Part shown: positions 1,456-30,957 of the stretch, piece by piece
Numbering within the stretch: the first letter of the stretch is position 1
Layout: each line of letters starts with the position of its first letter
Source: Lingula anatina
Lineage: Eukaryota > Animalia > Brachiopoda
Assembly: GCA_051362555.1 (NCBI GenBank)
Contig: CM120641.1
Coordinates: 2,356,001 to 2,420,000, forward strand
Reading direction: 5' to 3'
DNA length: 64,000 nt
Translations under genes and position numbers: made by a program
The notes under the pieces: model-generated
What the model was told of the DNA's origin: nothing
The model's database searches: none
Seen by the model: only the letters and a program-made list of their open reading frames with translations

Positions 1456-1762
1456 ATTACTAGTAGGTTCAATGACACATAAATGTACATACATATACAA
1501 ACCTCCATGTGTAGTTGTACACATGGGCATTAAATACACACCAAAAAAATGTAGATCTATCCTATTGTTCTTCGTGTTTCATTTGTGCAGTAAAAGGGAG
1601 CTGCTGAAATGTTTTTTATGCTAATTATTTACAGAATGTTTCTGTTTTTCTTTTGCATATTTAATCAGGAACTCCCAGAGCTTAATTCAAATGTCTATAT
1701 ACTCAGTAACACATATGCACACCCACGCACTTATTACAATTTGACTTTGTTTATTCTTCCAG

Positions 1763-4410
1763 AAAAACAGCTAACATTGCTTCAAAACCACCTGGCAGAA
1801 AGATACAACCGTGAGATGAGCTGTGTGCAGCGGATCCCCTGGGATGATACAGACACCATGAACATTGATGATGTGTTTGTAGATCTGTCTCTCATCCAAG
1901 AACAAAAGGAAGGTGGTGGCGTCAAAAAGGAATCACTCGAGTCTTACCAGGATATCTTCAAACCAGAAATAAGACGGAAAAGAATCATTGTCAGAGGTAA
2001 AGCTGGGTGTGGCAAATCAACAATTGCTGCAAAAATTACAGTTGATTGGGCAAGGTTTAAGATTCAGAGTTCAAATAGAAGTTCATCAGAAATATGTCTC
2101 TATAGCAGAACAAAATGCCCCAAAACAGAAGAGAGTCCTTTACATTATCTTGAAAATATATCTCTTCTGTTTCTTATCAGGTTAAGGTTTCTTGACAAAG
2201 ACCAGACTCTGCTTGAATCAATCAAAGATCAGCTGATTGACCCATCCCTTGAAATTTCAGATGAAGCTCTGCAAATGTACATGCATTCTAATGCTGATAG
2301 AATCCTTATCATATTAGATGGTTATGATGAATATAACATAGATAGTGCCAACCCCCAGAATAACATATCCAAACTGATAAAAGGGGAAACATTTGCTAAT
2401 GTAACAGTAATTGTCACTTCACGCCCATGGAAAGCACATGAGTTGTCCAAACATAGGCCCACTGACGTGCATGTAGAAGTAAAAGACATGTCCCAGTATC
2501 AAATGAATAAATTCATCAGAAACTACTTCACAGGTAGAGATCCAGGTCTTTGGTCTGTTTTGGAGTATGTGGAGGAATTCCATCTATCCTTATCACCCAC
2601 CCCATTACTTTTACTCTTTGTATGCATTTTATGGGATATAAAAACTGCAGAAGAAATGCCCAATTCCCTCACGGCACTTTATCAAGAACTTGTAACCCTA
2701 CTGTCGGACAGATATGTAGCCCGTCAAGAAAATCAAGAAACTGCAGAATGTTATCTAACAGAAAAGGCAAATATTATCGGTAAAATGGCTTTAGATGGAC
2801 TGCTTTCCGGTAACCTTACCTTTGATGAGACTAATTCAAACATTAAGGATTTAGGGAATCAGATTTTTCACACAGGTATCATGTCTCGTACAAAACTTAG
2901 TAGCATTAGGAGAAAGGCTCACATATCAAGCTACTCATTTATCCACAAAACTGTGCAAGAATATTTTGCTGCAAAATACATGGTTGAAAGTTGTAAGGAA
3001 GTCTCTCAGTCAGAGTCAATTAAGACATTCTTAAGCCATGTTAACTGCTGGGCAAGGTTCGAAGATATGATAAATATCATACAATTTGTTTGTGGACTGT
3101 CTTCAGAAGTGGCAGCAGTGATCTTTTCTCATTTGCATAGCCTGGCTGACAAAGATGCAGATTTTAAATCTGCATATTTTGGATTCCTTAATCCTACTTT
3201 TATTCATCTAATAACTGAAATGTTGACAAACAATCGTGTTGTAGCCCGTGAACATATGCAATGGCTGAACCATCTCGAAAGTGAAGAGATCCGTAACATG
3301 CATCCCCCGATAGCAAATTGTATATTGCAATTCGCTCATCAGGTTACAGAGTGCAGCTTTACTGGCGAAGTAGATCTCAATGTTCACAAATTACAGTACC
3401 ACACCATCTTCCCCTCTTTGAAGAGGCTGGAGATCATTGCTGAGTTTAATGAAGAAAGTTGTCGTAATTATCAATGTGCTGATCTAGACTCAAAGTTCTT
3501 GTTAGGTAGTCCCATAGACCGTTTTGAAGTGTTAGAAGGCTTCGAATTTTTACTGTCCCTTGAACCTCCATTTCCACCTTTGGAGGAGTTAAGTATCCTC
3601 GGTTGCCTTCTCGTTTGGAATTTGGTTGATTTGTTCCAACTGTTATCTACGAAGAGAATGGTCAACCTTATTTGTCTAAATCTGGAAATTTCAAGTATGA
3701 CTGAGTGCTTAACGTGTCCGGCAGTAGGTAGGAGGTCCAAACCTAAAATAAAGGAAAATGTAAGAAATAAAACAGACCCATTCATAGTTACAGTACCTTT
3801 CCATCAAGATTACAGTCAACACCATATTTTAATTGACACCCTTTGTGACCTGGCCTCACAGCTGAAGCATTTGCCCAACTTAGAACGACTTGGACTTAGG
3901 AGTACTGATATAACACCCGTAGGACTGAAGTCACTGACAGACAATTTGCATCATGTACCTAGGTTGCATGATCTTGACATTTCTGGTAATTCTGTACACA
4001 TGGGTTTTGTTTCCAACATTGACGTTCCAACTGTTATGACAGATCTTTTCCGTAAACTCCAATCAATGAACATGACACGTTTAAATATACGTGACTGTGA
4101 CATTGGATTACTTGGTGACATGGCACCAGCAATGAAAGCTCTATCAGATAATCTTAAACAATGGAAGGAACTGTGGTATTTAGACATTTCTTATAATTCC
4201 ATAGGGGAAAGTATCTCTCATCTAGTCGAGTCGCTGAATAGCACAGATCTCCCTCTTCTTGAAAGATTGTATGTTGCTCAAAATAACATGTTGAGTAAGT
4301 CATTGCAAAACGGACTTGCTGAAAAACTAAAAGCAATGCCAGGCTTGAGGCATGATGTCCCAAGTTCGATTTCCCTTCCTCTTGCATTATCAATTACTCC
4401 CGATGAATGA
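1763..4410 (+). CDS. NLR-family immune receptor: terminal exon encoding NACHT NTPase, winged helix and LRRs (N-terminal exons probably upstream of the window)
   Basis: Walker A GKAGCGKS, Walker B ILIILDGYDE, sensor-1 VIVTSRP, PLLL, WH motif FIHKTVQEYFAA, and C-terminal RI-like LRRs (LERLGLRST, LHDLDISGN, LWYLDISYN, LERLYVAQN). Likely phase-1 acceptor ttattcttccAG at 1761-1762. AATAAA at 4979-4984. Confidence 0.9.
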
Positions 4411-5936
4411 TGTGTTTCGTAATATTGATCTAACTGTTAACTGACTGACCGTAATATTGATCTGATTGACCATCTTGTTCCCCTGAAAACTACCGACTAC
4501 CACAGGCGAATCCTTCCACTTTACGGACCTATCAGTTTTACAAAGAAGAATTTCCCCCTCTGTTAAAGACGTACATGAATCAGTCATCAACAAATCTGCA
4601 TGTCTAGTTTAAACTTGGACCCATTCTGTGTGAGTCCAAGGTTATCTCACACAAGAGGTGTGTATTGGCAAGTTTCCTGGTTTATTAGAACTTCTTTGAG
4701 AATTTGGCTTTATGTTATGTTATTGTATATACACATGTATATATACTGTTGCAGGTAATTCTGTTCACTAAAGCAATATCGGACAAAAAGACGTGCAATT
4801 TTAGCAAATACATGTCAAAATGCTTTGTAAATATCTATGTACATATAATTTAATCTTCATATTGTAAGAGTTCATAAACGTCATATGAAACAATTTTATT
4901 TGAAAGTGCATATATTGAACATTACTATGAGACGTATACTGTGTAATATTCCATAATAACAATAACAACAGAATTAGTAATAAAATTAACATTGTCAGTA
5001 AATAGCCGTCTTAGAGTTACTCTCATATACGCCTTATTGGACACTGCAAGATCCCTGTTGGTTTTTTTGGAAGGGGAAGGGAGCCGAACTCAATTTTTTC
5101 TTCTAAATACCCCCTCCCCATCACTGCCTTCATGTGAACAGAAATTACTTCTGCCATTATCAATGCGCAAGCTGCAAGATCCACGCTTTTTTTTTTTTTT
5201 TTAAGTGGACGGGAGTTGCATTCAATTTTTTCTACCTACTCATCACTGGTTTCATGTAAACTGAAATTTGTTGTTGTTATCAATGTACAAGCTTTAGTTG
5301 ACGAAAGAAATCCCAACTACAACATTGAGTTATTTCTTCTGATGACACTTTCTGTGCATGGAAGCTTCTTCGAAAACCTGTCACAATCGATTTTAAGCAA
5401 ATTTCATTTAGTACTTCTTTATAAAAATGCAAATAATTACATAATAATTACAAGCCACGTAAATGATAATACAAGCTTGCAGATATTAACTGGAGAGGGA
5501 CTGCATGCAAAACATGTTGGGAGACGCTCTCACATTCAAATTTAAAACGACCAAACGAGTAACAGGGAATCCATAACTTGATGTTTATTGTTTAGTTTTA
5601 AATTTATCAAAAAAAGGTAATGCGGCTACCAGTCGGTTGCACAAAGTTCAAATATTTGACTGAAGTCGCCGCTTTTTTTTTTTTTTTAATACACTGCCTT
5701 CACATAAGGACCATTCCACGGTAGTGCACCGAAGAATATTTTCCATCCTTTAACTATAAAGTCCAGGCATAGCATCAATAACACCAAACAACTCATTTCA
5801 TTGTTCTCTTTATTTCTCTGTCCACTTAAATTTTTTCTATAGTCCTTACAGTAACAAGGAACTTCTTTAAAGTCTTTCCAAATCTCGACAGTTAATAATC
5901 TTCACAGCGTTCCCCCATACTGTCCACTAGACCATG

Positions 5937-8556
5937 TTAACCCCAGTTCTCAGTGGTGTTAGCCCCTCCCCACTGGTTATCAGGGGCTGGGGCAGTACCT
6001 GCTGCTGACTGAGTGGGTGCAGACCAATCATCATTAGTGGCAGACCAGTCCTCTGTTGTTCCACCATAACCACCTGACATGGCTGCTGGGGCTGCAGGAA
6101 CACCTTCAGTGGACCACTAAGAAAACATTAAATGTGGAGAATATTAATGTCAGAATAGTTATTATTGAGCAATTAATGATAAAATGTGATAAATATTGGA
6201 AATCTCTATTGAATGTGTTGCTGCAAAATTCGTTCTTCAGATGACTTATCATATCATAAATGCACCATCCAACAATACAATTAAGTTATGTTAGACTTAC
6301 ATCAGCCACCTCAGCGGGGGCTCCCCCAGGGATGGGGGCATCAGTCCACTGTTCCTGGCTGTACTCTGGCCCAGTAGAGGGCAGGGCAGCAGCAGCAGCT
6401 GTGGCGGCAGCTTCACGGGCAGCCTGCTCTTCTTTCTCAGCCTAGAGGAAAAAAAGATGGTATGTTACAGGAGTTTGACCAGAGGATGCTAAGAACCTAA
6501 GACCTGCCCCCTTCTTCCTGTTTTTGCCCTTTTCTAAAATTCTATATAAAGGCCAAAAACTTTTTAAACCCTTTACCACACAAAGGAGGGAAATCTCCAG
6601 CAATGTTTAATCTAATCTATTATCTCAGCTTAATTCCTCCATCAAGGCAATCAATTACATAATGTTACACAATTCATAATATTAACAAATGCAACAGCTC
6701 TCTTCGTGTTTAACTGTTATCAGAACAGATACAACAGATATTTGTAATTTTTAAAACAACACAAATAAAACTGAGAGATTTAAACGAAAATCAAACAATA
6801 TGTGAGAAGTACCAAAAAACTTTTCCAAAGTGTTGGGAGTCATTACCTCTTCTGGGTCCCTGTAGAAGTAGAGATCCACCATGACATCCCAGGGGACATC
6901 ACGGCTGATTGTGCCACGCAGACGCAGGACTTCACGTGCCAGCAACCACCACATCAGACCAATAGAGTGAGGACCCTGGAAATATTACATTTATCTTTTA
7001 TCAAATTAATGATTTTGGATTTCCAAGTATGATTTTCACATCCTAATTACAATATTTATCTTCACTATTCCAAACTATTCTAAACCACCTCTCACACTTC
7101 CTTTCAGTCATCAGAATACAATTAGGAGACAGATATGAGGAGTTACAATGAAATCATTTAAAGAAATTTCAAGTTTTGAAAAAAAAAAAGGCCTCCTCAA
7201 GCAATGTTCATGTAACAAGCAGTTAAATCATTAACATCTCAAAACCTAAATACTGTAGACTCATTCAAACTTCAGATGTACCTTGTTGTTGCATGGGATG
7301 GCAATATCCACATATCTCAAGGGGGAGTCAGTGTTACAGAAGGCAATGACAGGGATGTTCACATAGGAGGCCTCAGTGACTGGCTGATGGTCAGTACGTG
7401 GGTCTGTCACAACAAGGAGACGCGGCTCACGGAATGCAGCCTTAAATATAAAAATACATTCATCATGAGATATTTTAAATGTCAAAATAAATAATTGATT
7501 AATTTTAACGTTTTTTTTTCAAATGCAGTCAACTTAACAGAAATTGTTTGAATCAAGGGTTATTATGTATCTAGATACTAAACAACAAGAGTGGAACATG
7601 AAGGTTGAGTACATTCACAAGACTTTGATCCACAAATGGAGACCCCAATGCATTTGACTCATGTTGTTTGGCCTTATAAGTAAAGAAAAACTGTTTCCTC
7701 ATCCTGTTTCACAGCAATAACTCAAAAGACCAATTGCACAACTGTGTTTCATTACCTGGATTTGGTTAGTGAATGTTCCAGGGGTAAACCTGCCAGCTAC
7801 AGGGGTGGAGCCCGTGGCCGAGGCAAACTTGAGCACTGCTCTCTGGCCGTAGGGTCTGGCCGAGATGACGCAGACTTCTGCTGGGTTCTCAATGGCTGCG
7901 ATGGCACGGGCAGCAAGCAGGATCTTCTCCCAGGTCTTCTTGATATTGATGATGTGAACGCCTGACAAAATGATTTAGATCAGCACAAATGAATTAAGTG
8001 AGAAAATTCAAAATTGTTAAGAAATCCACAAGTTTCATGTACATGTGCAGGATTCAAAAGGACAGCAGTGTCAGAAATAAACTTTTTAAACCCCTATTTT
8101 GTTTTTCTATCCTTCTAGGTACAGATCAAACACTCACTTATTATCCAGTGCTTGTAAAACTATAACAAATGTGAATTTGTTGAGAAACCTTTCTGCTAAG
8201 TATTACTTGCTTTTTCTATTTTTAAAGGGAATTTATTTACAATTCTGTATTTGCAGTAAGGTCCATGTGACAGCAGCTCTAAAGCAAAAAGATTTTCCTA
8301 AATATATCTAAAACCTGCAACATATCTAACCAGGTTGAAATCCAACAAAAAAAAAAAAAAAAAAAATTATTATAAATCATTGGCTAATAATGAGTGAACT
8401 TCAACACACACAAACACACTCACCATCAGGTTTGCGTTTATAAACATACTGCTCCATCTGGAAGTCCACATTGGTGGAGCCAAGATGAGCACCACTGGCT
8501 AAAAACTTGGTGACATCGTCTTCTTTCAAAGCGAGTACGTCTAGACCTCCAGACAT
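5937..8556 (-). CDS. RPSA: 40S ribosomal protein SA (uS2 / laminin receptor precursor), 6 coding exons, 315 aa
   Basis: Exons 8424-8556, 7756-7961, 7282-7440, 6847-6975, 6301-6441, 5937-6116; all GT-AG and frame-consistent (948 nt). Translation [26 protein letters not shown]...[26 protein letters not shown]...YFYRDPEE...ENWG*. AATAAA on the minus strand at 5809-5814. Confidence 0.97.
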
Positions 8557-9214
8557 CGTGGGTTGATCGGTGAGTTACGGTGATCAACCTGAAAGTAATT
8601 ACACCCTATGTTAAAAAACCTTAAAGTAATATAGTTAAACTACTAATATATTTTATGTAGTTGTATGGACAGGTGTTGAAAAGCAAAAAGACAATCCACA
8701 TATTACTGGGCATGGGTGGTGGGGGACATCACTTCTCAAATGAGAGATGTCCCAGGCTAACCACGCCTATGACCTAAAATTTAGTTTTTCTCTTTAACTA
8801 GTAAACCATTCCCTTTAGATCACTTAACGCTAGGGCTATTATCCCATTCACAAATGTCATCATAAAAACAGTTGTAATGCCATAATTGACACGTAGAGTT
8901 TAACCAAAAAATATATAAAAAACCAAATGAACTGGAGGACTACAATTTGAAATGTGCCACAGACACATCTCTAGCAATACTTGTGTTTTTAATGTTGCCA
9001 TTTTTCACGTGTGCCGCTTAGCTTCAAGGCTTTTCTAACATGTGGCCGAACTCGGCTGTCAAGATACTGGTTATCACAAAAAGTTAGGGTTAATTTTACA
9101 ACTAAAACAAACTGTCACGAAGGGCAAAGTTTTCTTATTTGTTGTCCACTTAATGGGATATTTCCAAAGCAGTCAAAGCACTCGTTTATTTGGGTAAACT
9201 CTGAGAGGACTTAC

Positions 9215-9257
9215 AAGTAGGCAATGCCAAATGGAGTGTCCACCGGAAAAGGAAGAG
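9215..9257 (-). other. RPSA: RPSA non-coding first exon beginning with a 5'TOP/TCT pyrimidine tract
   Basis: Minus strand reads CTCTTCCTTTTCCGGTGG... and ends at a GTAAGT donor (9209-9214). It splices to the acceptor at 8589-8590. This is the usual ribosomal-protein gene start. Confidence 0.85.
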
Positions 9258-9335
9258 TGAAAAGTGCGGGGTTTCTCACAAGGGCATTCTCAATGCGCAC
9301 GCGCAGTGCGTAAACGGAAGTCGCGTGGGAAAGAA
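9258..9335. promoter_or_regulatory. Bidirectional CpG-rich promoter between RPSA (-) and NTAN1/GEMIN7 (+)
   Basis: NRF1-like TGCGCACGCGCA (9294-9305) and ETS/GABP-like ACGGAAGT (9314-9321), with local CpG enrichment. Flanked by divergent first-exon donors at 9214 (-) and 9372 (+). Confidence 0.7.
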
Positions 9336-9371
9336 AATAGTAAGGAGGCTCGTGCTACTCGGGCATTCGTG
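9320..9371 (+). other. Putative non-coding leader exon of the NTAN1/GEMIN7 unit (5' end approximate)
   Basis: ATG-free segment right after the promoter motifs, ending in GTG|GTAAGA (GT at 9372-9373). Downstream acceptors at 9745-9746 and 10845-10846. Confidence 0.55.
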
Positions 9372-9786
9372 GTAAGAATTACATCTGTTACCGCTGCAGT
9401 TTGACTTATTATATCTATGGCAGTATGTCGATTTTTTAGTAACGATGTTTCTCTATAATTTAAAATTCACACTACAAGTTTAAACATAAGTGTAAATCTA
9501 AAAGCAGTGTGTGAAATCGTTTGTTTACCTGATCCCGAAGCCATGAACTTGAAGGCAAAATGGGAGTGTTGTCGCGTTGAACATAATGAAACCGCGACAC
9601 CTTTTTTCGTTTTCCTCATTCCTGAAGGCTACATTTAACTTGCCTGTAAAAAAGATTGCTTAGTATCTACAATGTGATGGTAATTTCGTGCATAGCAATT
9701 GAATTATATTGGGCCGTACTTAGTTTTGTTATCACTTTCACTTTAGGTTGGAAACCATTTTTAGAAACAGTCGCCGTGTTGGTCTC

Positions 9787-12700
9787 ATGCCATTGTTAAT
9801 CAAAGGAGGAGCATTAAAACGGGTTCCATCTTGTATACGAGATTTTTTTAATAAATACAATCATTTTAAGGTGAGTACTGTTTCTGTAGTTGTTATAGTT
9901 CTTTAGTTTAAACAATGTTTTGTTATTGTTATTTTGGAAGCCACCGTAATCTTTTGTGCAAAGCATTTTTCCCAATCGGAAAAAGAAAAAAAAATTAATC
10001 GGTTTCAATTTCAGGAATAAGCACATTATTTCCAATAGTATTGATAACTAAATTGAAAAGATAATGAGTACTGGAGAGAACAGAGATACGTACCTAGTAT
10101 GGCAGGCCGCAGGGGTTGTTACAAGGAATATGCCAGTACTTCTAAAAACCAACTGTTGTGTATCTTTAAATCACTCTGGTTGGTGCCTTAGAAAGGGATT
10201 TGAATCACTTTTTTGGCACTTTTCCCTTAATGCGAACTAATCTTTTTAAAAACAATGCATTATTGCATGTTTTCCATATTATTTATAGATTTATTTTTGG
10301 TCCCCATCAAAATTCATTGCTCATCATTGAACATTGAATCTATTTCAGTGCAAATGAAGTTTTAAACAATTAATATTTAAGAGATAACAACTGTTCCTTG
10401 TGGCAGGAAAAGTGTCATAAAATGAATTTTTCATCAAGACAGTCACATGTGCTGGTGTTAAAATGGAATTTATTATATTTCTATGAGTTGTTTACAGTGT
10501 ATTTATGGTGGATTTTAATCTGTTATGAAGAATTGTTATCCCTGTAGGTGATTTAATGTTAATTATTGTTTTATCAAAATTTTTTTTATTGTGAAATTGG
10601 TCTCCTATGAGTCTATGACTTAAATAAAAATAGCAAAGAACATTTCGTTTATTTGAATAATAATTTTATTGCTGTGCAGATAAATAAAGAATTCCTAATA
10701 TAAATTGAAAAAGATATTGGTGCTTTACATTATGTATGCTACTCATTCCTTCATTGTGTACTATTGTACATATTGTTATCGAATATTGGGAACAGTGAGT
10801 TGAAAACAAATGTCTACATTTATGAAACCAATTTTGACTCCAACAGATGAGTGAAGAACTGGAAAAAGTGCAAGAACTAAGAACGTACCTACGAGAGCGT
10901 TACCTAAGAGCCATGAACGCACTGGCTAGACGACCTATCACAGTGACTATGTTTGAGAAAACAATTGTGAATGCTGTTTTTGGCAGCAGTGATTTGGATG
11001 GACTACTACTACAGGTGACAGATCTGGAAACACCCACTGGAACTCATCCAAACGGACTGCTGAGGACCAGTGACATTCTATCTATTAATATTCATCCTCT
11101 CCAGGAAGAGAAATCATAACACATTGGTGACTACTCTAATATGTTTGCCAGGGAAGCTCATATAATTAATGGAAGACAATGCAGCATATCTTATTCAGTT
11201 CAAATGTGGCATTCCTGTGGATTCAGCAGAGCTTAAATAAGAATTTAGAATGAATATGTGCTACAAAAATATTTTGTATTTGTGTGACGTGCCAGTTCAA
11301 GTTAAAGAATTCTCAACCCAGTTTGTGAATTTAAAACATTAATGTTTCTGATAAATTTTCTTTGTTCATTTTATAAGGATCTTCTAAAGGTCAGATTCAA
11401 ATATTATTTCTAAATATTTCATATCCCTGATATTGTAAATTGTAACAATTTTTTTTAAATTTCAGTATTTTTATTGAATTTGAGTTAAACTATTAATATA
11501 TGAAAACCTGTTGGTTTCATAAGACAGCATATTAAGATTCATAGATTATTGACTGAAAAATATGTTCTGTGAAAGGGAAACATTTCTTACTACTTCTAGA
11601 ACTACAGCTGTTATGAATTCTGCAGAGTTTTCTAAATAAATGGATAGCTGAATTTGTAAATAACTGTGTTCTACCAGTGCATACTTATTTTATCAACTCT
11701 TCTCACTTCTGTAATATTTCATAAACAAAGTCCAAGGTAAGGGTATTGCAGGTTTACAGTTATACCAGGTATAAAAATTTGGTTTTGACTTGAAATCCTG
11801 CTATTCAAAGTAAATCTAAATGTTTCTACCCTTACCCTTTCCCCTTTTAGTGCTGGATCCCCTAATAGCATTCATGAATTAATGACAGTTTTTATTGGGG
11901 AGGGGGGGGGGTAAGGTGAATATTTATCCCCTATTGCAATTTCAGCAAATTGAATGAGGTGATGGTTTTAGTCCATTGTGACAGTTACAATATCATGAGT
12001 AGGATTTCTTCTATAAGGAGCTCTCTTTGTAATTTTTCTGTATTTTACTTGGTGTGTGTCTGTGTGTAGGGGGGGGGGGGGGGGTGTCCAAAACTTTTAC
12101 CGCCATGAAATCCTGCTCATTCTACCAGAATTATGAAGTTTTTGATTGTTCAAGGATGAGGTAGTTTCCAAAAGAAGTCAACCAGTAAGCAAGGTCGGAG
12201 CCCAGGGCTTGTTGTATGTGCTACAGAGAGAGTATGCAGGAACTGCACCAGAGGATGGTGAGTGCACAGGATCAGGATGACCTCAAGGGGTGGATGTTTT
12301 TGATGGTGATGTTAGTTTATCTGTCTGTTAGCAACATGATGCAAAATGTTATGGACTGATAGTGAAGAAATTTTCATGATAGGTCAAAAATGGGTTAACT
12401 TGAAAGTGATTAGATTTTGGTGGAGATCCTTAAATCAGTTAATGATTATATATGTATAGTCTAGCAAGTTAATTATTTATCTTGGCAGAGGTATGCAGTC
12501 TGTGATATATTGACATGATGATGGTGATGATGTTTGAGTTGATGCAGATTTCATTTTATTGTGAATCTCACTTGATCAGAAATTTTTTCACCTTAATAAA
12601 ACTCTAGGCTTTAATTCAGCTTCTGACAAATATATTTAATTAGATGAATGTGTTCTATCAAACTTCTATGTCATGCTCCATTATGTTTCAGATGTGATAT

Positions 12701-13125
12701 CTGTCCTGGGTTCTGAAGATGCCACTACATGCCACATTGTTATTATAAGGCATACAGGTTTGTTTTCCATTTGATAAGCTTACTACAATTTCTTTCACTT
12801 GTTTATATTTTGTAACTTTTACTCCTTGGGACAAAGTGAAGTAATAAATTGTAACTGTATTTGATTTTCTCCATTTAAAGGTAAATTATATTTTTGTAAT
12901 TTAAAGATATATTGCTACAGTAGTATACATGTTAGTGGTACTTAATTTTGAGAATAGTTGATGTTATGGTATAAATATTTTTGCCGGACTTCTATTAAGG
13001 AAATATTAAGGAATGGGAAATTTTGTGAATTGTGCTGCATGTGTTATGGACTGATAATGACAAAATTTGCATGAAAATGGGTTAACTTGAAAGTGATTAG
13101 ATATTGGTGATGATCCTTATATCAA

Positions 13126-13192
<67 letters not shown>

Positions 13193-16100
13193 ATATATAT
13201 ATATAAAGAAATGGATAATTTTGCATAATATCCATGGTTCCAGGTTCTGGAGCCACGTCTCTTGGACACTTTGATGGCTGTGATACTGAGAGGGCTGTCA
13301 GAGACATGGTCAAGTTGGTCACAAACCTCTCAGAAGGAAAGATGAATGGAAGGTACAGTAAAATAGTGATTAATGTTTGAGAAACAAATGATGTCTTTAC
13401 CATATTTGTACCATCTTTCAAATTCTCACTTAAATTAAGGCAATGACTCTTATGTCCAATTAAGTGGTGCTTCCCAAGGCATGAAGGTCCCTTTTGATGG
13501 AAATTAAAATGTAGAAAAATTTTGTAAGATGGTGAGAGTTGGGTTTGCAAACTGTCCAAATAATGAATGCAATAAATGTATAAGATGTCAGAATAGTTCT
13601 GTGAAGAATTCGGATAAATCTGATACCACCGGGGTTATTTCAGGATTGAGGTACACATGTATGGTGGCTTTATTGATGACCGGAATACCTCGGCAGAGCT
13701 GTCATTAAGTTTGCTTGGTAATGCTAACCAGCATAGTAATTAATCACTTGATAAGAGTTATTTGCTTTCATTGGTGATCAAGTTTTAATGTAACTGAATT
13801 TATGATTTAAAAAAAAATTTTTTAAGTTTTTTGTAAATCTAATGTAGTTGAATCTCAAAGCTTTAGACATGGAGTTAAATTGAAGAAATTCAATTGCAAA
13901 TGCAACTGAGTATTAGCGTGTATGACATCTTGGTTTCTAGATGTTTTATTCCATTAACTCCCTTTTAAATCATCAGATAACTATCTTGAAATTTTGATTT
14001 TTAGATGCACTTCACAAACAACCAGAAGATATCCATCTGATGACTGCTTGCATAACAGGTAGGGGGGAGCATCTGCAGGAGCATATTTTCTGTTAGATTA
14101 TAATTGTACATCTGATTCTGTACAATGATGATATGCTGTTTTCCTCTTATTTCCGTTTTGTAAAACCCTCAAAGTAGGATATGACAGTATGGATAGGTTT
14201 ATAAGCTGGTGAAAAAAAACTTTTTTTATTCTGTCCTCAAAATATTTACTGTCAATTTATATCAAATTTAATCACATTTATCAAATACATGTAACAATAG
14301 AATGATTTTTATCTCATTTTCTTAGTTAGAGGACTCAGTGCTTGTATACATTATAACATTCAGACTCTAACAATTGTTAAATGTGGCCATAAGCTGCAAA
14401 TGCCTGTTTAATTGACTAAAATGGACTATATCTTCTCATTGAATGATTTGGATTGCAGATCTTAATGATGAAGTTAGAGGTGGAATTCACTGGCCAGTGT
14501 TCTATGGAGTGGGTATGTGTTCCTGGAGCTTGTACAAATTTTAAAAAAATCAGAATGAGCATCATAAGTTGAGACAACCCAAATCAACTTGAAAAATAAA
14601 CTGGCCCCCGTTTCACAAAGAATCTTAAATCCGTAGTCGACTAGCTCGGGCTGGGTGACCTAGCTAGGTCGACTACGCTGCAGTCGACTTCAAAGTAACA
14701 GTTAAACATTAGCTTGTCATGGAACACTGCTGACGGACGTCTAGCGGTCAAAAACTTAAATCCGTAGTCGACTAGCTCGGGCTGGGTGACCTAGCTAGGT
14801 CGACTACGCTGCAGTCAACTAGGAGTGTTTCACAAAGATTCTTAAGTGGTTTTTTTCTTAGCTGCTAGTCGACGATGTCTAGCCTCCTCGGGAGGAGACT
14901 TAAGTCTGCAAGCTCAACTGAAACTCGGTAAATGAGAGCATACACAAAAATTTGGAAAGAACATACCTCCTTCAAGATATTGTGTTATAATATCCTTGAA
15001 TAGCACTGACATTTATGGAATATTGAAATAAAAAATAAAATGCCACTTCACCCAGCCGATCGCGTGTTTGTTTATGTTTTTGGTCACTAGACGTCCGTCA
15101 GCAGTGTTCCACGACAAGCTAATGTTTAACTGTTACTTTGAAGTTGTATCGAAGTTAAACTAATCAATAAAGTTCGAAAATAAACTTTGTTTGTGTTTTG
15201 GCTGATTTTTATTGTTGATAAACGATCATTCCCGGTCGAAAGAGGCCATGAAACGTCATGTCTTGTGAAACTTTAGAAATTTTACACCTCCTTTTCTTGA
15301 AGAGTTTCTCATGCGTCGACTATGCTAAGCACACTAAGCTAAGACGTTAGAATCTTTGTGAAACACTCCTAGTCGACTGCAACGTAGTCGACCTAGCTAG
15401 GTCACCCAGCCCGAGCTAGTCGACTAAGGATTTAAGATTCTTTGTGAAACGGGGGCCTGTGCTGATTTGAAAATCCAAGAAAAGTTATTTCTTTACTGGG
15501 TTTCAATATTTTGTGATGAAAAATAAGAAACAACTTTAATTTTATATTTAATTTCCAGCTGTCAATGTGAAAACTGGAGAGACTTTCAAAGCGTCGTTTC
15601 CTGACAAAGGTCCTGATATTCCCCTGAGGGCTGGTACCCATTTTACAGGGATGGAAGAGGTAGAAATTATACCTTTTGCATTCTGTGAATAAGAAAATTA
15701 TCATACTTTTTTAAATTGGTTTTTGGTGTCATTATGGATTTGTGTCATTGTAATTCTAATAAAAATCTGTCCCGTAGTATATATAATATAAATTATTTGT
15801 AGATAAATTATAAATTGTTTAAAAAAAAACAAACTGTTTACTGTTTAAGTATATTTGTTAAACATTTACATTTTTATTGAAACATTATTATTTTAAGACA
15901 ATTTTGATGTGGCTGTATCTTTTTATGTCAAGTTCAAATACTCAGATGAACTATTATGCATTGCATGCAATGGGATGATAGTAAGATGGAAGAAAGAATA
16001 CTAAATCACATAAAAGATTTACAAATGTTTCAGATGATGAACATGTATGACATGGAAAGAAAACTTTTAAAAATTGGTCCATTTTCTTACGGACCTTTTC

Positions 16101-19100
16101 CCTACATTGACCGCTTACTGCTGCTACCAGATGAGTACTACAGGATGGTGAGTTTCTTTTTTAATTTCACAAAAATCATCTTTTTTATAAAAGAAATAAT
16201 TTTGTATCATTCAGATTTCTTTTTTGTCATTGCAGTTATAATGAAGATTTACTGTGTAATTTTTACATATAAATTATACATTGTTTGCAAATGTACAAAT
16301 CTTACAATTACAGTGCTATTTAGATTTAAGCTTCTCATCCAGAAAAATGATGTTCATCTAAACAAAATAGTGTGTACTGCTATAATGTCTTTAAATAACA
16401 AGGCAGCAAAGCTGTCAAATGTACAGACAAAAAGCAGGAAATAACTATGCACAAAATAGGCTACTGTCAATTCTGATGCAAAAGTACATTATGTTAAACT
16501 GCAAATTCAACATCAAATTTTAATTATGCTCAACAGGTAATACCAATGTAAGTAAAATGTGTAACAAGCATAAGGCTTCAGGCCCATGGCAGTTCAAGTT
16601 CACACTTTGAAAATGTATAACTTCCAAAAAAAGGAGCCAATTAGACTGCTTTTCCAACTCGGGCTGCATTTTAGTCCTGTATTTCTTTTCTGAACGTTTG
16701 GCAATCATCAGTAACATGGTTTTCCCATAATGGTCATCATGGCAGCAGCACCCAAAATTGTGTTTTCTTCTATTCTGATGCAATATTACATAGTGGTTAA
16801 CAGCATAATGACCGTCAATTTTTAATAATAAAATATGCGTATCATGGATTTTCAGAAAATGTTACCAGCATGTGTCTTCAAGCCCATGGAACTTCAAAGT
16901 CACACCTTGAAAATGCCAATATGTGAAAAATTAAATTTTCACAAAAAAAAAACTGTTTAACTAGCAGAAAGCATTACCAAACAGACTGCATTGCCTACTG
17001 AAGCTGTATTTTAGTCCCATGTTTCTTTCCTGTAAGTTTGAGAACAGTAAGTGACATGATTTTTCTTAAATGGTCATCATGGGAGCAGTGCCCAAAATAT
17101 TTTTTTCCAAATTTTGATGCAATATTACATAACGTTTAACAGCATAATGACCATCAATTTTTAATAATAAAATATTAGTATTATGGATATTCAGAAAATG
17201 TGACTAGCAAAGGTCTTCAGGCCCATGGAACTTCAAAGTCACAACTTGAAAATGCCAAAATGTAAACAAGACAGCACTGTTCTGAAATGTTTTTTTTTTC
17301 CATTTTTAACACTTTTTTAACATAAAACAAAATTAGCAGTTTACTGCCATTTTTATATGATCAACTAAGAAAATTGATGAGATGTGAAAAATATCAATAA
17401 AACGGTGTCAAATGTCCAATTTCCTCCATTCTGAGTTTATGAACATAGTGAATGATTGAATCTTACAAACTGCAGTGATATGAGTTTATTTCCATTTTTG
17501 AAACTTTATTACACAATACACGATAACAAGTTTACCATCATTTTTACAAAATCAACTAACAATGTTGTAAAGATGCAGGAAATGTCAAACAAACACTTTT
17601 ACTTATCTTATTAATTAAATAATGAAACTGTTAACATGCCTAAAAATTGAATCTGAGGAAATGTGAAACAAGACAGCACTATTCTGAAATGGGTTTATTT
17701 CCATTTTTAACACTTTTTTAACATAAAACAAAATTAACAGTTTACTGCCATTTTTATATGATCAACTAAGAAAATTGATGAGATGTGAAAAATATCAATA
17801 GAACAGTGTCAAATGTCCAATTTCCTCCATTCTGAGTTTCTGAACATAGTGAATGATTGAATCTTACAAAATGCAATGATATGAGTTTATTTCCATTTTT
17901 GACACCTTATTACACAATACACGATTACAAGTTTACCATCATTTTTACAAAATCAACTAACAATGTTGTAAAGATGCAGGAAATGTCAAACAAACACTTT
18001 TACGTATCTTATTAATTAAATAATGAGACTGTTAACATGCCTAAGAATTGAATCTGAGGAAATGTGAAAAAACAGCATAACTACTAAAATAGTGGCCCGA
18101 TCATGCCGATTTTCGAACTTGATCTGCGTTTTAGTAAGATTGATTACTCCTGTGAGTTTCATGACAACAGGCCTATCAGTTTTCCTTGAAATGTGTTAAC
18201 AGTGTTGCATATATGCTGAAAAGTGAAAACAAGACAGCACTGTTCTGAAATGTTTTTGTTTTTTTTTTCATTTTTAACAATTTTTTTAAACATAAAACAA
18301 AATTAACAGGTTACTGCCATTTTTATACAATCAACTGAGAAAATTGATGAGATGGGAAAAATATCAATAGAATAGTGTTTAATGTCCAATTTCCTCCATT
18401 CTAAGATTCTGAACATACTGAATGATTGAATCTGACAAACTGCAATGATATGAGTTTATTTCCATTTTTGAAACTTTATTACACAATACACGATAACAAG
18501 TTTACCATCATTTTTACATATTCAACTAACAATGTTGTAAAGATGCAGGAAATGTCAAACAAACACTTTTACATGTCTTATTAGTTAAATAATGAGACTG
18601 TTAACATGCCTAAGAATTGAATCTGAGGAAATGTGAAACAAGACAGCTCTGTTCTGACATGGGTTTATTTCCATTTTTAACACTTTTTTTAACATAAAAC
18701 AAAATTAACAGTTTACTGCAATTTTTATATGATCAACTAAGAAAATTGATGAGATGGGAAAAATATCAACAGAGCAGTGTTAAATGTCCAATTTCTTCCA
18801 TTATGAGATTCTGAACATAGTGGATGATTGAATCTGACAAACTGTAATGATATGTGTTTATTTCCATTTTTGACGCTTTATTACACAATACACGCTAACA
18901 AGTTTACCATCATTTTTACATAATCAACTAACAATATTGTAAAGATGCAGGAAATGTCAAACAAACACTTTTATGTATCTTATTAGATCAGTAATGAGAC
19001 TGTTAACATTGCCTAAGAGTTGAATCTGAGGCAATGTGAAAAAACAGCTTAACTTCTAAAATAATGCCCCGATTGTGCTGATTTTCGAACTCAACCTGCG

Positions 19101-20567
19101 TTTTAGTAAGATTGACCACTCCTGTGAGTTTAATGACAATTAGCCCATCTGTTTTTCTTATATTGTGTTTACGGTGTTGCATATATGCTGAAAAATGAAA
19201 AAACAGCATAACTACTAAAATAGTGGCCCGATCATGCCGATTTTCGAACTTGGCCTGCATTTTAGTAAGATTGATTATTCCTGTGAGTTTCATGACAACA
19301 GGCCTAACGGTTTGCCTTAAAATGTGTTTACAGGGTTGCATATATGCTGAAAAGTGAAAAAACAGCATAACTTATACAATAATGGCCCGATCATGCTGAT
19401 TTTCGAACTTGACCTGCGTTTAATGAATATTCATCAGCTCTGTAAATATAAAGCCAAAAAGTAAAACTGCCCTCCACTTATCGTGTTTACAAGGAAAGTG
19501 CACGGCGCCGGCGCCGGCGACGGCGACAGCGACGACAGACGCAGGTGATGGCAAAAAAACAGCATAAATTCTACAATAATGGCCGGATCATGCTGATTTT
19601 CGAACTTGACCTGTGTTTTATGAATATTCATCAGCTCTGTAAATATAAAGCCAAAAAGTAAAACTGTCTTCCACTTATGGTGTTAACGCTGAAAGTGCAC
19701 GGCGACGGCGACGGCGACATGATCGGCGACGGCGACGACAGACGCAGGTGATGGCAATATGTACAGACACATCTGTGTCTGTACATAAAAACAGCATAAA
19801 TTCCCTAAAAGTGACCCGATCATGCTGATTTTCGAACTTGACCTGCGTATTATGAATATTCATCAGTTCTGTAAGTTTCAAGGCAAAAGGTAAAATGGTT
19901 TTCCACTTATCGTGTTATCGGTGCTGCATATATGCTGAAAAAAGTGAAAAAACAGCATAAATTCCCTAAAAGTGACCCGATCATGCTGATTTTCGAACTT
20001 GACCTGCGTATTATGAATATTCATCAGTTCTGCAAGTTTCAAGTCAAAAGGTAAAATGGTTTTCCACTTATCGTGTTATCGGTAAAAGTGCACGACGGCG
20101 ACGACGGCGCCGACGGCGACGACGGCGACGACAGACGCAGATGATGGCAATATGTACAGACACATCTGTGTCTGTACATAAAAAGGGTTAAAGGTTCCAT
20201 GAGTGATATCTCACTGCCTTTGTTAATGACATTTGTTAGTGTCAAGTCACATGCCAGTGATGACATGGATAAAATACTGTATCATGTATGGTATGTTTAC
20301 AGCCCCTGATTCTTGAAAATATTTGAATTGGACAGGATAAGACAAAAATCAATAAATTTTGTTCTGTTATTTCTCAGTTTTTAATGATTTTTTTAGCATC
20401 TCTCCACATCTCCAGCCCAGGAACCTTCAGGCTTTGAAGCCGATGTCAGGAAAACTTTGGAGCAAATCAAAAACCACCCAGACCCCATGAAAACAGTATT
20501 CATTGATGGAAAACCTAGGTTCTACAAAAAGGAAAAGGATGGTAACTGGGTCAGGGTCGACGGATGA
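9787..20567 (+). CDS. NTAN1: Protein N-terminal asparagine amidohydrolase (N-degron pathway), 10 coding exons, 309 aa
   Basis: Exons 9787-9870, 12155-12257, 12692-12757, 13244-13352, 13644-13717, 14005-14058, 14459-14512, 15559-15659, 16034-16147, 20397-20567; all GT-AG and phase-consistent (930 nt). Translation MPLLIKG...GAQGLLYVLQRE...LGSEDATTCHIVIIRHTG...HFDG...EVHMYGGF...AVNVKTGE...DKGPD...LKIGPFSY...LSTSPAQEP...GNWVRVDG*, matching remembered NTAN1 motifs including the catalytic ATTC cysteine. Confidence 0.93.
10847..11119 (+). CDS. GEMIN7: Gem-associated protein 7 (SMN complex, Sm-like fold), single coding exon nested in an NTAN1 intron
   Basis: RTYLRERYLR...FGSSDLD...QVTDLETPTG...LLRTSDILS matches the Gemin7 core (human RAALRERYLR...FGATDLD...LQTPIG...LLRCSDII, from memory). 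Acceptor ctccaacAG lies immediately before the ATG. AATAAA at 11635-11640. Confidence 0.9.
   Translation: MSEELEKVQELRTYLRERYLRAMNALARRPITVTMFEKTIVNAVFGSSDLDGLLLQVTDLETPTGTHPNGLLRTSDILSINIHPLQEEKS
12278..12505 (+). repeat. Degenerate short interspersed repeat (HINE-like), with a partial second copy at about 13040-13125
   Basis: TCTGTCTGTTAGCA microsatellite-like head and a core (TGTTATGGACTGATA...GGGTTAACTTGAAAGTGATTAGAT..TGGTG..GATCCTT) repeated at 13040-13120. The tail CTTGGCAGAGGTATGCAGTCT resembles DINE-like ends. Confidence 0.45.
13129..13205. repeat. (TA)n microsatellite
   Basis: About 75 bp of TA dinucleotide with one interruption, about 40 bp upstream of NTAN1 exon 4. Confidence 0.95.
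14604..15456. mobile_element. PIF/Harbinger-like MITE in NTAN1 intron 7
   Basis: Long TIRs GCCCCCGTTTCACAAAGAATCTTAAATCC... / ...GGATTTAAGATTCTTTGTGAAACGGGGGC. 3-bp TSD CTG at 14601-14603 and 15457-15459. No ORF. Confidence 0.88.
16397..20184 (-). mobile_element. Full-length HINE/DINE-1-like Helentron derivative with expanded internal tandem arrays, in NTAN1 intron 9
   Basis: Minus strand: T-run, palindrome ATGTACAGACAC-AGAT-GTGTCTGTACAT, (GTC/GCC)n microsatellite, then ~150, ~400 and ~350 bp tandem units. It ends with the 3' subTIR TGTCTGTACAT, stem-loop and CTTGTT at 16397-16429, identical to the end of the copy at 1423-1455. Confidence 0.8.
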
Positions 20568-23500
20568 AAACCTAGAATGTGTTTCGTTGAAATGGTTTCC
20601 TACTTACATTAGTGTTAAATTAATTCTATATGGAATTTCAGATAATTTTTCTCTGAAGTGAAAGTGTACAGTGTGCAATATATGAAGTTTTCATTCCAAA
20701 TTAACTTTTGACATCTGTTATTTGCCCTGTCAACTGTATATTCTGTGCTGGTTTTAAAAAAATATGTTTGCATTACATATAACTTTTTGTTCAGCAGAAA
20801 ACCTCAACATTAATTTACTTTTTCTGTTTACATTCATTGACAAGGGATAAGTGAATTTTATAATAATGCAAGTTTTGCTGGCAAATATTTATTATTCAAA
20901 TTGGAGTTTGAAGTTATGTTTCTCTTAACCATGTATTATGTTCTTAGTGTGTGGTGTTGGATAATATAATGAAGTCCATAATGTTGATTTTGCATACAAA
21001 ACAATTGTTATTAAAATAACTATAAATAATTTTTGATAACTGTTTTTGTCTGTGTTGCTCATACTGATTTAATGTGATTTTTGTCACTGAGTGTAGAATA
21101 ATGCTCAAATAATATCAATAAATGATCAACTGACTAAAAAGAAAGTTTTAGGTTCAACTGACTGCTACCTTATATCTTACATTGCAGCTGTATATTTCCC
21201 TTAAAATTTCAATTTAGTTTAACAATCAGCAGCTATATTTGGTATAACTACAAAACCACCATGTTCTTTAGATGCCTGCCATGTCACTTTCTTCTGGAAA
21301 AAAAACTCACTTCAGACTGAACACCTGACTTTCATTCCTCATGTGCTAAAGATCCAACTAAAATTAAAACCTTTAAAATATTGGTTGTACAATGATCTCT
21401 TTCTTAATAATTAATCCATTGTATTGGGTGGCTGTTGACAGGTATAAGGGGGCAGGGTATGGGAATGGACCACAGCACAGTGTAACGTTTTTTTTTTTTT
21501 TTTTTAATATTAAAACTTTTTATGTATTTTCCAAAATAATATTTTTGGGACATGCTGGTGGCCTTCTTTATTGAATCCTAAGTTTAAGGAGTGACATGTC
21601 CCAATGAAAATATATTACATATGATGATGGCAGTTTTTAAGCCAGATATACCTAGTGTTTTGACCTTGTCAAAAGTCTGGTCATAATGATAATTTGATAA
21701 ATATTGTGAAATCTCTTTAGAATTCTTTCAATGAAATTAATTATTTTAGGCTAGTAGCAGTATTTGTATGTCAGAGTTAGCCTTGGTATAAGTTATTTTA
21801 CAAAAGTGCATATTAAACAGGTGTTGTATGATTTTCCAGGTAAGTTAATTTTATAGTAAAAAATTAGAGCTGCTGCACCCTGTGAAAATCTTATTATCCC
21901 ATCAGGAATGTTGACCAATTTAACAATTGACATAAAGTGTATGAATTAATACAATCTGTTGCCTATAATATGTTAATGTCTTTATCGTGTGGGACTAATT
22001 TACATGATTATAGTTTCTCTACCTGGTCGCCATATGTGGTGTATGATTATTCTCCGAAGCACTTTGTAGTTCAAATTGATAAGTAATAGTACGTAGCTGG
22101 CTACACTTTCAGGGAGTTAATATAGGACAATGGACTTTAATACAGTCAAGTGCTGATTAATTTGTCACTGGACTCCCGCTCACTTTAGTAGGGTGAACCT
22201 GAAGAGATAATGACACCATTGTGGTTTTAATCAGTTTCAAGATCATTTAATTGTTATGGGGAGTAGAACACTCTGAAGAGATGTCTATCTGAATGATACT
22301 CTGCTGTACTAGTGTAGAATAGCATTGGAGAGCTGCAAACCACTCCCCCAAACTGCATGTACCATTGGGATAACATGAGAGGTAAATATTACAGCATTTC
22401 AAAATATTACCCAATTGTTTGCTCTGGTCATATTTGAGATATTTGCCGTTTACTGTAGTGATAGTTCTGTTGTGATGAGTGAGTGTTAAATGGACTAGAG
22501 GGTATCAAGGAAGGAATTATTGTGCTTCATTTACCCTTAGTATGTGGTCCTCTGTTCGATGTTGAACTAGCAGTGAAATGAACATGATTGAAGTGTAATG
22601 GGAAACTGGTAATGAAATGAGGTATGTAATTCTGAAGCTGTATTTTGCTGGTGTCTTTTTGTTATTACAAGGAAGTATTTGGGAGTAATTCACTCCATGT
22701 AAAATACAGAGAGAATATGCAGTTCTACCTGTTAATATACTAATGGAGATATATATGTATGGATGAATGACATTACTATTTCCGTGTAATGAAATTTTAT
22801 AATATATAAACAGACTAGACTGTATGGACTTCTTGGACCTAGAATTTGGTCTTTTTGATAGTTTGCAGCATACGTATCTTATTTTTAATACAACCCTTTT
22901 TATTTTTGGTGAGTTGAAATTTTAATTTTTTTCTTATAAAATTATGCTTTGCTGCCAAAATTTTGATAAGAAAGTTATTTTCTAGTGTCTAATTAAATAG
23001 GTGAAATTTTTTGAAGGGTGGTATAAATATTTGAAACTTTTTCAAATGATGACTTTACATGATTGAACAGGGCATATTATAACAAACCCTGAGTACAGAG
23101 AGTCAGTGAAAAATTCTAGTTAATGCAGCTACACTGTGGCTTTGTACACCAACATCTAATCTCCATACTCCGTTACACACCATAAAGAAAAGAAGAACCA
23201 CTTGAAATACAACACATTTAGAGTACACAACCTTAGTATGTAACCAGCAATAAAGAAAAGGAAAGGCACCTGAAATGCAAAACATTTAGAGTACACATTT
23301 GGAGGTTTATGTAGCAAGCAGGCAAGTTATTTCTCAAAACAGCGGCTCACTGTTTGCAATGTGGACCTGAATATTGTTGATGTCTGTTTGTAAACAAGAG
23401 GCTGGGTACAGGCTAGCTCCCTCAGGTGAGAGGTTCTTGATCTGTAAGTATGAACTGGGGCTTTTTTTAGATTAATATTACTGTTGGAGATTTGAAATTG

Positions 23501-30914: not shown

Positions 30915-30957
30915 TTAAATTTTTACGTTTCGCAAGAGGAATATCTGAGCTTACACA

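What the first reader, a model, noticed from the sequence alone, without database searches (positions are those of the whole stretch)
9320..12257. GEMIN7 nested same-strand inside NTAN1: two unrelated proteins from one transcription unit
Seen: the whole GEMIN7 CDS lies between NTAN1 coding exon 1 (9787-9870) and exon 2 (12155). It has an acceptor directly abutting its ATG (caacAG|ATG), its own AATAAA (11635), and no evident promoter of its own. Inference: GEMIN7 is an alternative terminal exon. Leader 9371 to 10847 gives native Gemin7. Splicing 9870 to 10847 is also in frame (phase 0) and gives a 118-aa protein with NTAN1's first 28 residues. Skipping the exon gives NTAN1. Because Gemin7 helps assemble snRNPs and U1 suppresses intronic polyadenylation, the choice could be an autoregulatory switch (speculative). 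The two genes are unlinked in human as far as I recall.
Basis: partly seen in the sequence, partly recalled or inferred. Interest (0 to 1): 0.78.

Follow-up and report, generated by a model that had tools for sequence, protein, structure and literature searches.

The report
Two unrelated genes share one start
In the lamp shell Lingula, the gene for the spliceosome-assembly protein Gemin7 sits inside an intron of the unrelated enzyme gene NTAN1, and RNA reads show both spliced from the same first coding exon, so Gemin7 likely carries NTAN1's first 28 amino acids, an arrangement until now best known from insects.

Summary
Confirmed and refined. An intact 90-codon GEMIN7 ORF (10847-11119; Pfam E 8e-24) lies same-strand between coding exons 1 and 2 of a 10-exon NTAN1 that matches Lingula anatina RefSeq NTAN1 at 307 of 309 residues.

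RNA reads (4 runs) show the NTAN1 start-codon exon (9747-9870) spliced either to GEMIN7 (9 reads, 2 runs, in frame) or to NTAN1 exon 12155 (18 reads, 3 runs). The proposed leader-to-GEMIN7 splice was not listed; all 12 listed leader joints go to 9747. GEMIN7 is therefore an alternative last exon whose mRNA encodes a 118-aa NTAN1(1-28)-Gemin7. Native Gemin7 would need leaky scanning past NTAN1's weak-context ATG (inferred). 10 of 11 listed GEMIN7 read differences are silent.

AATAAA 11635 is chance-level. The GEMIN7 junction reads come only from a diverged lineage, and no single run shows the whole mRNA. No NTAN1 link appeared in 184 Gemin7 proteins or 44 loci from other organisms.

This is a new member of a known class (Su(var)3-9/eIF2gamma, Rpb4/Ada2a). 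U1 autoregulation is untested.

The parts
9316..9371 (+). shared non-coding leader exon (start approximate; at least 56 nt long in X4)
   Evidence: joint 9371>9747 in X1 (6 reads) and X4 (6 reads); donor GTG|GTAAGA
9747..9870 (+). shared exon: 40 nt UTR plus NTAN1 codons 1-28 (ATG 9787, context CTC-ATG-C); its donor is used for both products
10847..11119 (+). GEMIN7 coding region at the start of an alternative last exon; acceptor AG directly before its ATG
   Evidence: Pfam, PDB, model, joint 9870>10847, silent differences
11120..11670 (+). GEMIN7 3' UTR, end not settled: candidate proximal site (AATAAG 11236 / AATGAA 11249, then a U/GU-rich stretch) and distal AATAAA 11635
   Evidence: depth bins; motif scan; inferred
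12155..12257 (+). NTAN1 coding exon 2 (acceptor ...TTCAAG|G), reached by skipping GEMIN7
   Evidence: joint 9870>12155 in X4, X7, X8
12692..20567 (+). NTAN1 coding exons 3-10 (12692-12757, 13244-13352, 13644-13717, 14005-14058, 14459-14512, 15559-15659, 16034-16147, 20397-20567)
   Evidence: joint 12257>12692
9214..9315 (-). RPSA first exon (pyrimidine-run, TOP-like start near 9257) and the short CpG-rich bidirectional promoter that also drives NTAN1/GEMIN7
   Evidence: opposite-strand reads and loose end at 9213, sequence, Pfam Ribosomal_S2; TOP and promoter labels from recalled knowledge

Best explanation
GEMIN7 is an alternative last exon of the NTAN1 transcription unit: the exon carrying NTAN1's start codon is spliced either to GEMIN7 or onward to NTAN1 exon 2, so one promoter makes two unrelated mRNAs, and the GEMIN7 mRNA likely yields a 118-aa Gemin7 that begins with NTAN1's first 28 residues. 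Shown: both splices from donor 9870, same strand, in frame, intact ORF under purifying selection. Inferred: the GEMIN7 mRNA also carries the 9371 leader (no single run shows both joints); it ends by polyadenylation inside the NTAN1 intron; the 28 extra residues are a tolerated tail on the Sm fold; part of the ribosomes likely scan past the weak NTAN1 ATG (C at -3) and start at the better-context GEMIN7 ATG (A at -3), giving native 90-aa Gemin7 as well. Likely origin: Gemin7's single coding exon, which in other animals often has an acceptor just before its ATG, landed in this intron and captured the host donor and a strong housekeeping promoter shared with RPSA.
For:: 9870>10847 in X7 (7 reads, 5 starts) and X8; 9870>12155 in X4, X7, X8; 9371>9747 in X1, X4; no row joining GEMIN7 onward to 12155. 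In X1 the shared exon has depth about 6 and GEMIN7 about 15 while NTAN1 exons 2 and 3 have under 1, so most shared-exon reads there probably belong to GEMIN7 mRNA (indirect); 10 of 11 listed GEMIN7 differences are silent (25% expected, P about 7e-6; only the best-supported rows were shown, 24 rows were not); after splicing, 9787 is the only ATG upstream of GEMIN7's. Gemin7 N-termini vary from a few to over 100 residues before the conserved helix, and the solved human chain lacks the tail. -3 purine bias is general in eukaryotes (PMC2241899 abstract); by eye 8 of 23 printed Gemin7 loci have an acceptor-like AG within about 70 nt before the start.
Against: The 9870>10847 reads come only from one study (X7, X8), whose reads are mostly 90-95% alike to the window, i.e. 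a diverged lineage. X1 and X4, closer to the window, list 0 such reads (X1 also lists 0 for 9870>12155). Counts are small (84-289 reads laid per run), and only 4 of 9 listed runs were laid. X7 has about 2 reads' worth of depth at 10684-10815, just upstream of the acceptor (retained intron or a minor private start). There are no protein data. Lack of a second ATG in the 81 nt after the start is not significant by itself (16% in shuffles).
Confidence: 0.8

Rival explanations
1. Same RNA structure, but the product is essentially native 90-aa Gemin7: ribosomes mostly bypass the weak NTAN1 ATG or the extended form is degraded, so exon 9747-9870 acts as 5' UTR for GEMIN7.
For: NTAN1 ATG context CTC-ATG-C versus AAG-ATG-A after splicing, with no ATG between. 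GEMIN7 keeps its own ATG exactly at the exon start. None of 184 Gemin7 homologs has an NTAN1-like N-terminus (best E 0.5).
Against: The same ATG must serve NTAN1, whose Met-Pro-Leu-Leu start matches human. First-AUG initiation is the default (established knowledge), and the junction is in frame.
Confidence: 0.3
2. GEMIN7 is mainly an independent nested gene with its own intronic start; the 9870>10847 reads are a minor read-in product or specific to the diverged lineage.
For: No junction read in X1 or X4. A little depth at 10684-10815 in X7. A donor-like site at 10795.
Against: Stranded runs X1 and X4 have zero depth at 10684-10815 and almost none elsewhere in the intron outside a repeat at about 10450-10510. 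The intron has no CpG-rich stretch. In X7 junction reads (7) are of the same order as exon depth (about 9-10).
Confidence: 0.12
3. The choice is a feedback switch: low snRNP (U1) levels favour intronic 3'-end formation and so more Gemin7, restoring snRNP assembly at the cost of NTAN1.
For: U1 suppresses intronic poly(A) sites, and the Pcf11 intronic site responds to U1 inhibition (PMC6428223, abstract and section 19). The GEMIN7:NTAN1-exon-2 depth ratio differs between runs (about 20:1 in X1, 1:3 in X4, about 1:1 in X7 and X8).
Against: The ratios rest on few reads and are confounded by library type and 3' bias. Both products use the same donor, so U1 binding there does not discriminate between them. 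No conserved regulatory element was found, and no sign of the arrangement outside Lingula, which a useful circuit might show.
Confidence: 0.12
4. The exon is a silent or decaying copy, and the working GEMIN7 is elsewhere in the genome.
For: No whole genome was available to exclude another copy. RefSeq holds two near-identical NTAN1 models on one scaffold, so the locus may be duplicated or allelically doubled.
Against: The exon is expressed in 4 of 4 runs, the ORF is intact, 10 of 11 listed differences are silent, and no Lingula-labelled Gemin7 appeared among the 17 hits.
Confidence: 0.04

Closest known systems
Su(var)3-9 / eIF2gamma locus of insects (PMC1435931, abstract and passages; PMC4528330, section read)
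   Same: One intronless exon for an unrelated conserved protein inside a host intron, same strand; common promoter and start codon; 3' alternative splicing; guest protein begins with the host's N-terminus; no useful isoform with both domains.
   Different: 80 shared residues versus 28 here. There the arrangement is about 400 Myr old and traced across eight insect orders; here it is seen only in two Lingula lineages. Here the guest keeps its own ATG right at the acceptor, so a tail-free protein is possible.
FlyBase 'genes with CDS overlap' (10 pairs and one triplet, e.g. Rpb4/Ada2a 21 residues, Glycogenin/CG44245 28 residues; PMC4528330 File S2 rows)
   Same: Shared promoter, first exon(s) and a short in-frame N-terminal segment between functionally distinct genes.
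   Different: Different genes and phylum. The terms Ntan1 and Gemin had 0 hits in the 12 supplements searched (one file not searched).
Cholinergic locus unc-17 (VAChT) / cha-1 (ChAT) (PMC3875643 passage)
   Same: Guest gene inside the first intron of the host, same strand, common 5' exon, choice by pre-mRNA processing.
   Different: The shared exon is non-coding and the two products act in one pathway; NTAN1 and Gemin7 have no known functional link.
Intronic-polyadenylation autoregulation of PCF11 and CSTF3 (PMC6428223)
   Same: An RNA-processing factor whose output could depend on early 3'-end formation.
   Different: There the intronic site truncates and lowers the factor; here it would create the factor. 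No feedback is shown here.

Membership tests
Gemin7 (PF11095) | Profile match above curated cut-off over the whole domain | tested here: met
   83.8 bits vs cut-off 25, profile 3-76 of 76
Gemin7 (PF11095) | Sm-like fold with N-terminal helix | tested here: met
   AlphaFold model H3-25 plus five strands, pLDDT 92; human Gemin7 chains are the only PDB hits
Gemin7 (PF11095) | Binds Gemin6 and Gemin8 in the SMN complex | not tested
   no partner sequences from this organism were at hand
NTAN1 (PF14736) | Full-length domain with Ser/Cys/His catalytic triad | tested here: met
   P0168 E 3.6e-102; window model 307 of 309 identical; residues aligned to human S69, C75, H92 are S, C, H
Genes with CDS overlap (Su(var)3-9/eIF2gamma type) | Two evolutionarily and functionally distinct proteins | tested here: met
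   different Pfam families; unlinked in human
Genes with CDS overlap (Su(var)3-9/eIF2gamma type) | Shared exon spliced alternatively to either gene, same frame | tested here: met
   joints 9870>10847 and 9870>12155 in the same runs X7 and X8; frame
Genes with CDS overlap (Su(var)3-9/eIF2gamma type) | Shared promoter and transcription start | tested here: inconclusive
   leader joint seen in X1 and X4, GEMIN7 joint in X7 and X8; no start mapping; no intronic promoter sign
Genes with CDS overlap (Su(var)3-9/eIF2gamma type) | Shared start codon actually used for both proteins | not testable with these tools
   needs proteomics or ribosome profiling
Genes with CDS overlap (Su(var)3-9/eIF2gamma type) | Guest is the only ortholog in the genome | not testable with these tools
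   no genome held; no other Lingula-labelled Gemin7
Autoregulatory intronic polyadenylation (PCF11/CSTF3 type) | Isoform ratio responds to the factor's own activity | not testable with these tools
   needs knockdown; run-to-run ratios are confounded

The most novel reading that the evidence does not exclude
Lingula has wired a snRNP-assembly factor into an snRNP-sensitive splice/polyadenylation choice: when U1 and other snRNPs run low, transcripts stop early and make Gemin7 instead of NTAN1, while a deliberately leaky shared start codon lets the same mRNA give tail-free Gemin7. This would be a natural feedback loop on the SMN complex that also couples it to the N-degron pathway and to a ribosomal-protein promoter.
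Probability: 0.1. Interest if true: 0.8.

Novelty: new member of a known kind. Interest (0 to 1): 0.52.

Why it matters
It extends a rare gene architecture, catalogued mostly in insects, to a brachiopod and to a new pair of conserved housekeeping genes, with direct splice-junction support. It may explain why no near-identical Lingula Gemin7 protein turned up in the protein collection: annotation likely folds the exon into NTAN1's intron, so apparent Gemin losses in other genomes deserve a look inside introns. At under 3 kb from promoter to the competing acceptor, the locus is a compact minigene for testing how a shared start codon, alternative last exon choice and U1 levels set the ratio of two unrelated proteins.

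Tried and rejected
Whole-genome search: no genome is held, so copy number is open. Only 4 of the 9 listed RNA runs were laid, so direct junction evidence in the window-like lineage and the 3' end remain open.

Conservation outside Lingula was not found. NTAN1 residues 1-28 against 184 fetched proteins (Gemin7 homologs and their cluster members): best E 0.5, and none starts with M-P-aliphatic-aliphatic. NTAN1 tblastn against 44 of 44 metagenome Gemin7 loci: best E 1.0. Only 16 of the 44 have 2.5 kb or more downstream and 6 have 5 kb or more, several are near-duplicates, and the organisms are unnamed, so this is a weak negative. Many database proteins are single-ORF calls that could not show a spliced N-terminus. 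Pfam scan of 150 of 444 flanking ORFs found no NTAN1 and no evident host gene. Pfam scan of 54 longer Gemin7 proteins found no clear host-derived domain.

Rfam over 5000-21000: 0 matches. The bacterial promoter scan is irrelevant here.

Literature: 0 papers for Gemin7+NTAN1, Lingula+Gemin7, NTAN1+brachiopod, Gemin7+Naa20A. For Gemin7+intron+nested (4 papers, 3 listed) and gemin7+cistronic (6), titles and abstract starts show no such locus. My recollection that fly Gemin7 is an isoform of an acetyltransferase gene was wrong: CG31950 is Naa38 (PMC6385987 passages). Earlier scan findings: none. AATAAA 11635 was rejected as stand-alone evidence. PMC8287938 was not read.

Full report
Identity and anatomy. 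The window carries a ten-exon NTAN1 on the + strand (coding 9787-20567). All nine coding introns are GT-AG, and the joined model gives 309 aa, 307 of 309 identical to Lingula anatina RefSeq NTAN1 P0168 and 306 of 309 to its second model P0169. The organism is therefore Lingula anatina or a very close lineage. The first coding exon (9787-9870) is residues 1-28 and aligns from Met1 with human NTAN1. Between it and exon 2 (12155) lies a 90-codon ORF, 10847-11119, that is Gemin7 by Pfam (E 8.2e-24), by PDB sequence match and by predicted Sm fold (pLDDT 92). The acceptor AG directly precedes its ATG. There is no second copy of either gene in the 64 kb. Upstream, RPSA runs the other way from a start about 60 bp from the NTAN1 leader; the stretch between is the only CpG-rich spot in 9000-11000.

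RNA evidence. Nine RNA runs under the same species label were listed and four were laid on 9100-13050 (84, 88, 289 and 197 reads laid). Listed joints: 9371>9747 (X1 6, X4 6), 9870>12155 (X4 5, X7 9, X8 4, X1 0), 9870>10847 (X7 7, X8 2, X1 0, X4 0) and 12257>12692 (1, 4, 2, 11). So the same donor is spliced to either gene within one run. No row was listed for 9371>10847 or for any splice from GEMIN7 onward to NTAN1; rows need three reads in one run. In the stranded runs GEMIN7 and NTAN1 are on the same strand. Limits: X7 and X8 are one study and mostly 90-95% alike to the window (a diverged lineage). In X1, closer to the window, the shared exon has depth about 6 and GEMIN7 up to 15.7, while NTAN1 exons 2 and 3 stay under 1, which points indirectly to the same structure. 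In X7 and X8 the last base of the shared exon reads as a silent change, so the frame is kept (my reading of the 'letter between' rows).

Selection. Of 11 differences listed in the GEMIN7 ORF, 10 are silent, including one in the stop codon, against 25% expected (P about 7e-6). The tool showed only the best-supported rows (24 not shown), and the rows pool several runs. The shared exon is looser (4 silent, 3 replacements), as expected for a variable N-terminus.

Which protein. The junction is phase 0 and gives 118 aa. After splicing, 9787 is the only ATG ahead of GEMIN7's. Its context is weak (C at -3, C at +4), whereas GEMIN7's ATG gains an A at -3 from the splice; a purine at -3 is the general eukaryotic bias (PMC2241899, abstract). 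I therefore expect the 118-aa form from the first ATG, with some 90-aa form by leaky scanning. This is inference; no protein data exist here. A tail should be tolerated: homologs carry from a few to over 100 residues before the conserved helix, and the solved human chains begin at about the same point as the 90-aa form. That NTAN1's Pro2 matters for activity, which would fix C at +4, is recalled and was not found in the passages searched in PMC7022378.

3' end. AATAAA at 11635 is real but unremarkable: 15 occur in 9,578 intronic bases. X1 depth collapses after about 11211, near AATAAG 11236 / AATGAA 11249 followed by a U/GU-rich stretch, while X7 and X8 have some depth at 11476-11607. Tandem ends are possible; this is not settled.

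Spread and origin. No NTAN1-like N-terminus was found among 184 fetched Gemin7-search proteins, and no NTAN1 exon in 44 Gemin7 loci from metagenome contigs. Flanks are short in most of these (16 of 44 with 2.5 kb or more downstream), so this only says the arrangement is not universal. Human GEMIN7 is on chr19 (PMC11077057 passage) and NTAN1 on chr16 (PMC3630198 passages). By eye, 8 of the 23 loci printed have an acceptor-like AG shortly before the Gemin7 start. An acceptor-plus-ORF cassette is thus a common form of this gene and would work at once if moved into a host intron (inference). No near-identical Lingula Gemin7 was returned by the protein searches, consistent with annotation having missed it, though I cannot see what the collection omits.

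Comparison with what is known. The architecture matches Su(var)3-9 inside eIF2gamma: one guest exon in a host intron, common promoter, 3' alternative splicing and a shared N-terminus (PMC1435931, abstract and passages). FlyBase lists 10 pairs and one triplet of this kind, several sharing 20-28 residues (PMC4528330, section part 2 and File S2 rows; one supplement not searched). unc-17/cha-1 is the non-coding-exon version (PMC3875643 passage). The kind is known. I found no paper on this pair (0 hits; the library lacks most subscription journals).

Autoregulation. U1 does protect against intronic polyadenylation, and PCF11 is a precedent for feedback (PMC6428223, abstract and section 19), but nothing here tests it. 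Run-to-run ratios vary (about 20:1 to 1:3) on few reads and different library types. I give it about 0.1.

Verdict. Real and expressed, with the shared-exon splice directly seen in a sister lineage; a new member of a rare known class. Interest 0.52.

Noticed in passing
L005:1582-2189 and L004:117-694: In two metagenome contigs from unnamed organisms an intronless GEMIN7 ORF is followed closely (about 25 nt to the next ATG in L005), same strand, by an intronless NAA38 ORF (human NAA38 E 2e-28; the two NAA38 ORFs are 71% alike). Likely a dicistronic GEMIN7-NAA38 mRNA pairing two Sm-fold genes, a second case of Gemin7 sharing a transcription unit; 2 of 44 loci show it.
   Followed up: partly
protein P0154: 163-aa protein with a weak Med21-like N-terminal part (E 3e-5, below the curated cut-off) ahead of a full Gemin7 domain; may be another shared-exon case or a gene-model fusion.
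   Followed up: no
window 9214-9330: RPSA (- strand, pyrimidine-run start near 9257) and NTAN1/GEMIN7 start about 60 bp apart at a CpG-rich bidirectional promoter with GCGCACGCGC and CGGAAGT motifs (NRF1-like and ETS-like by recall), so three genes hang on one promoter.
   Followed up: partly
RefSeq records behind P0168 and P0169: Two NTAN1 models differing at 5 residues, both on a 575,503-bp contig: tandem duplication or allelic double in that assembly; only one copy lies in this window.
   Followed up: no
window 12129-12157: NTAN1 exon 2 uses an AAG acceptor with a competing CAG about 26 nt upstream, and both alternative exons begin almost identically (G-ATGAG versus ATGAG); reads list only 12155.
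   Followed up: partly
window 30949-37561: LTR retroelement with open gag, pol (RT, RNase H, integrase) and a baculovirus-F-like envelope ORF.
   Followed up: no
window 1594-4410: Long single-exon NACHT plus LRR (NLR-like) ORF converging on RPSA.
   Followed up: no
window 14600-15460 and 16500-20000: By eye: an element with long inverted ends in NTAN1 intron 7, and arrays of repeats in the 4.2-kb last intron. A dispersed repeat at about 10450-10510 collects unrelated reads.
   Followed up: no
runs X7 and X8: Reads under the same species label are mostly only 90-95% alike to the window even in coding exons, suggesting a cryptic sister lineage.
   Followed up: no
window 50786-55495: 1,569-aa open frame with no Pfam match.
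   Followed up: no
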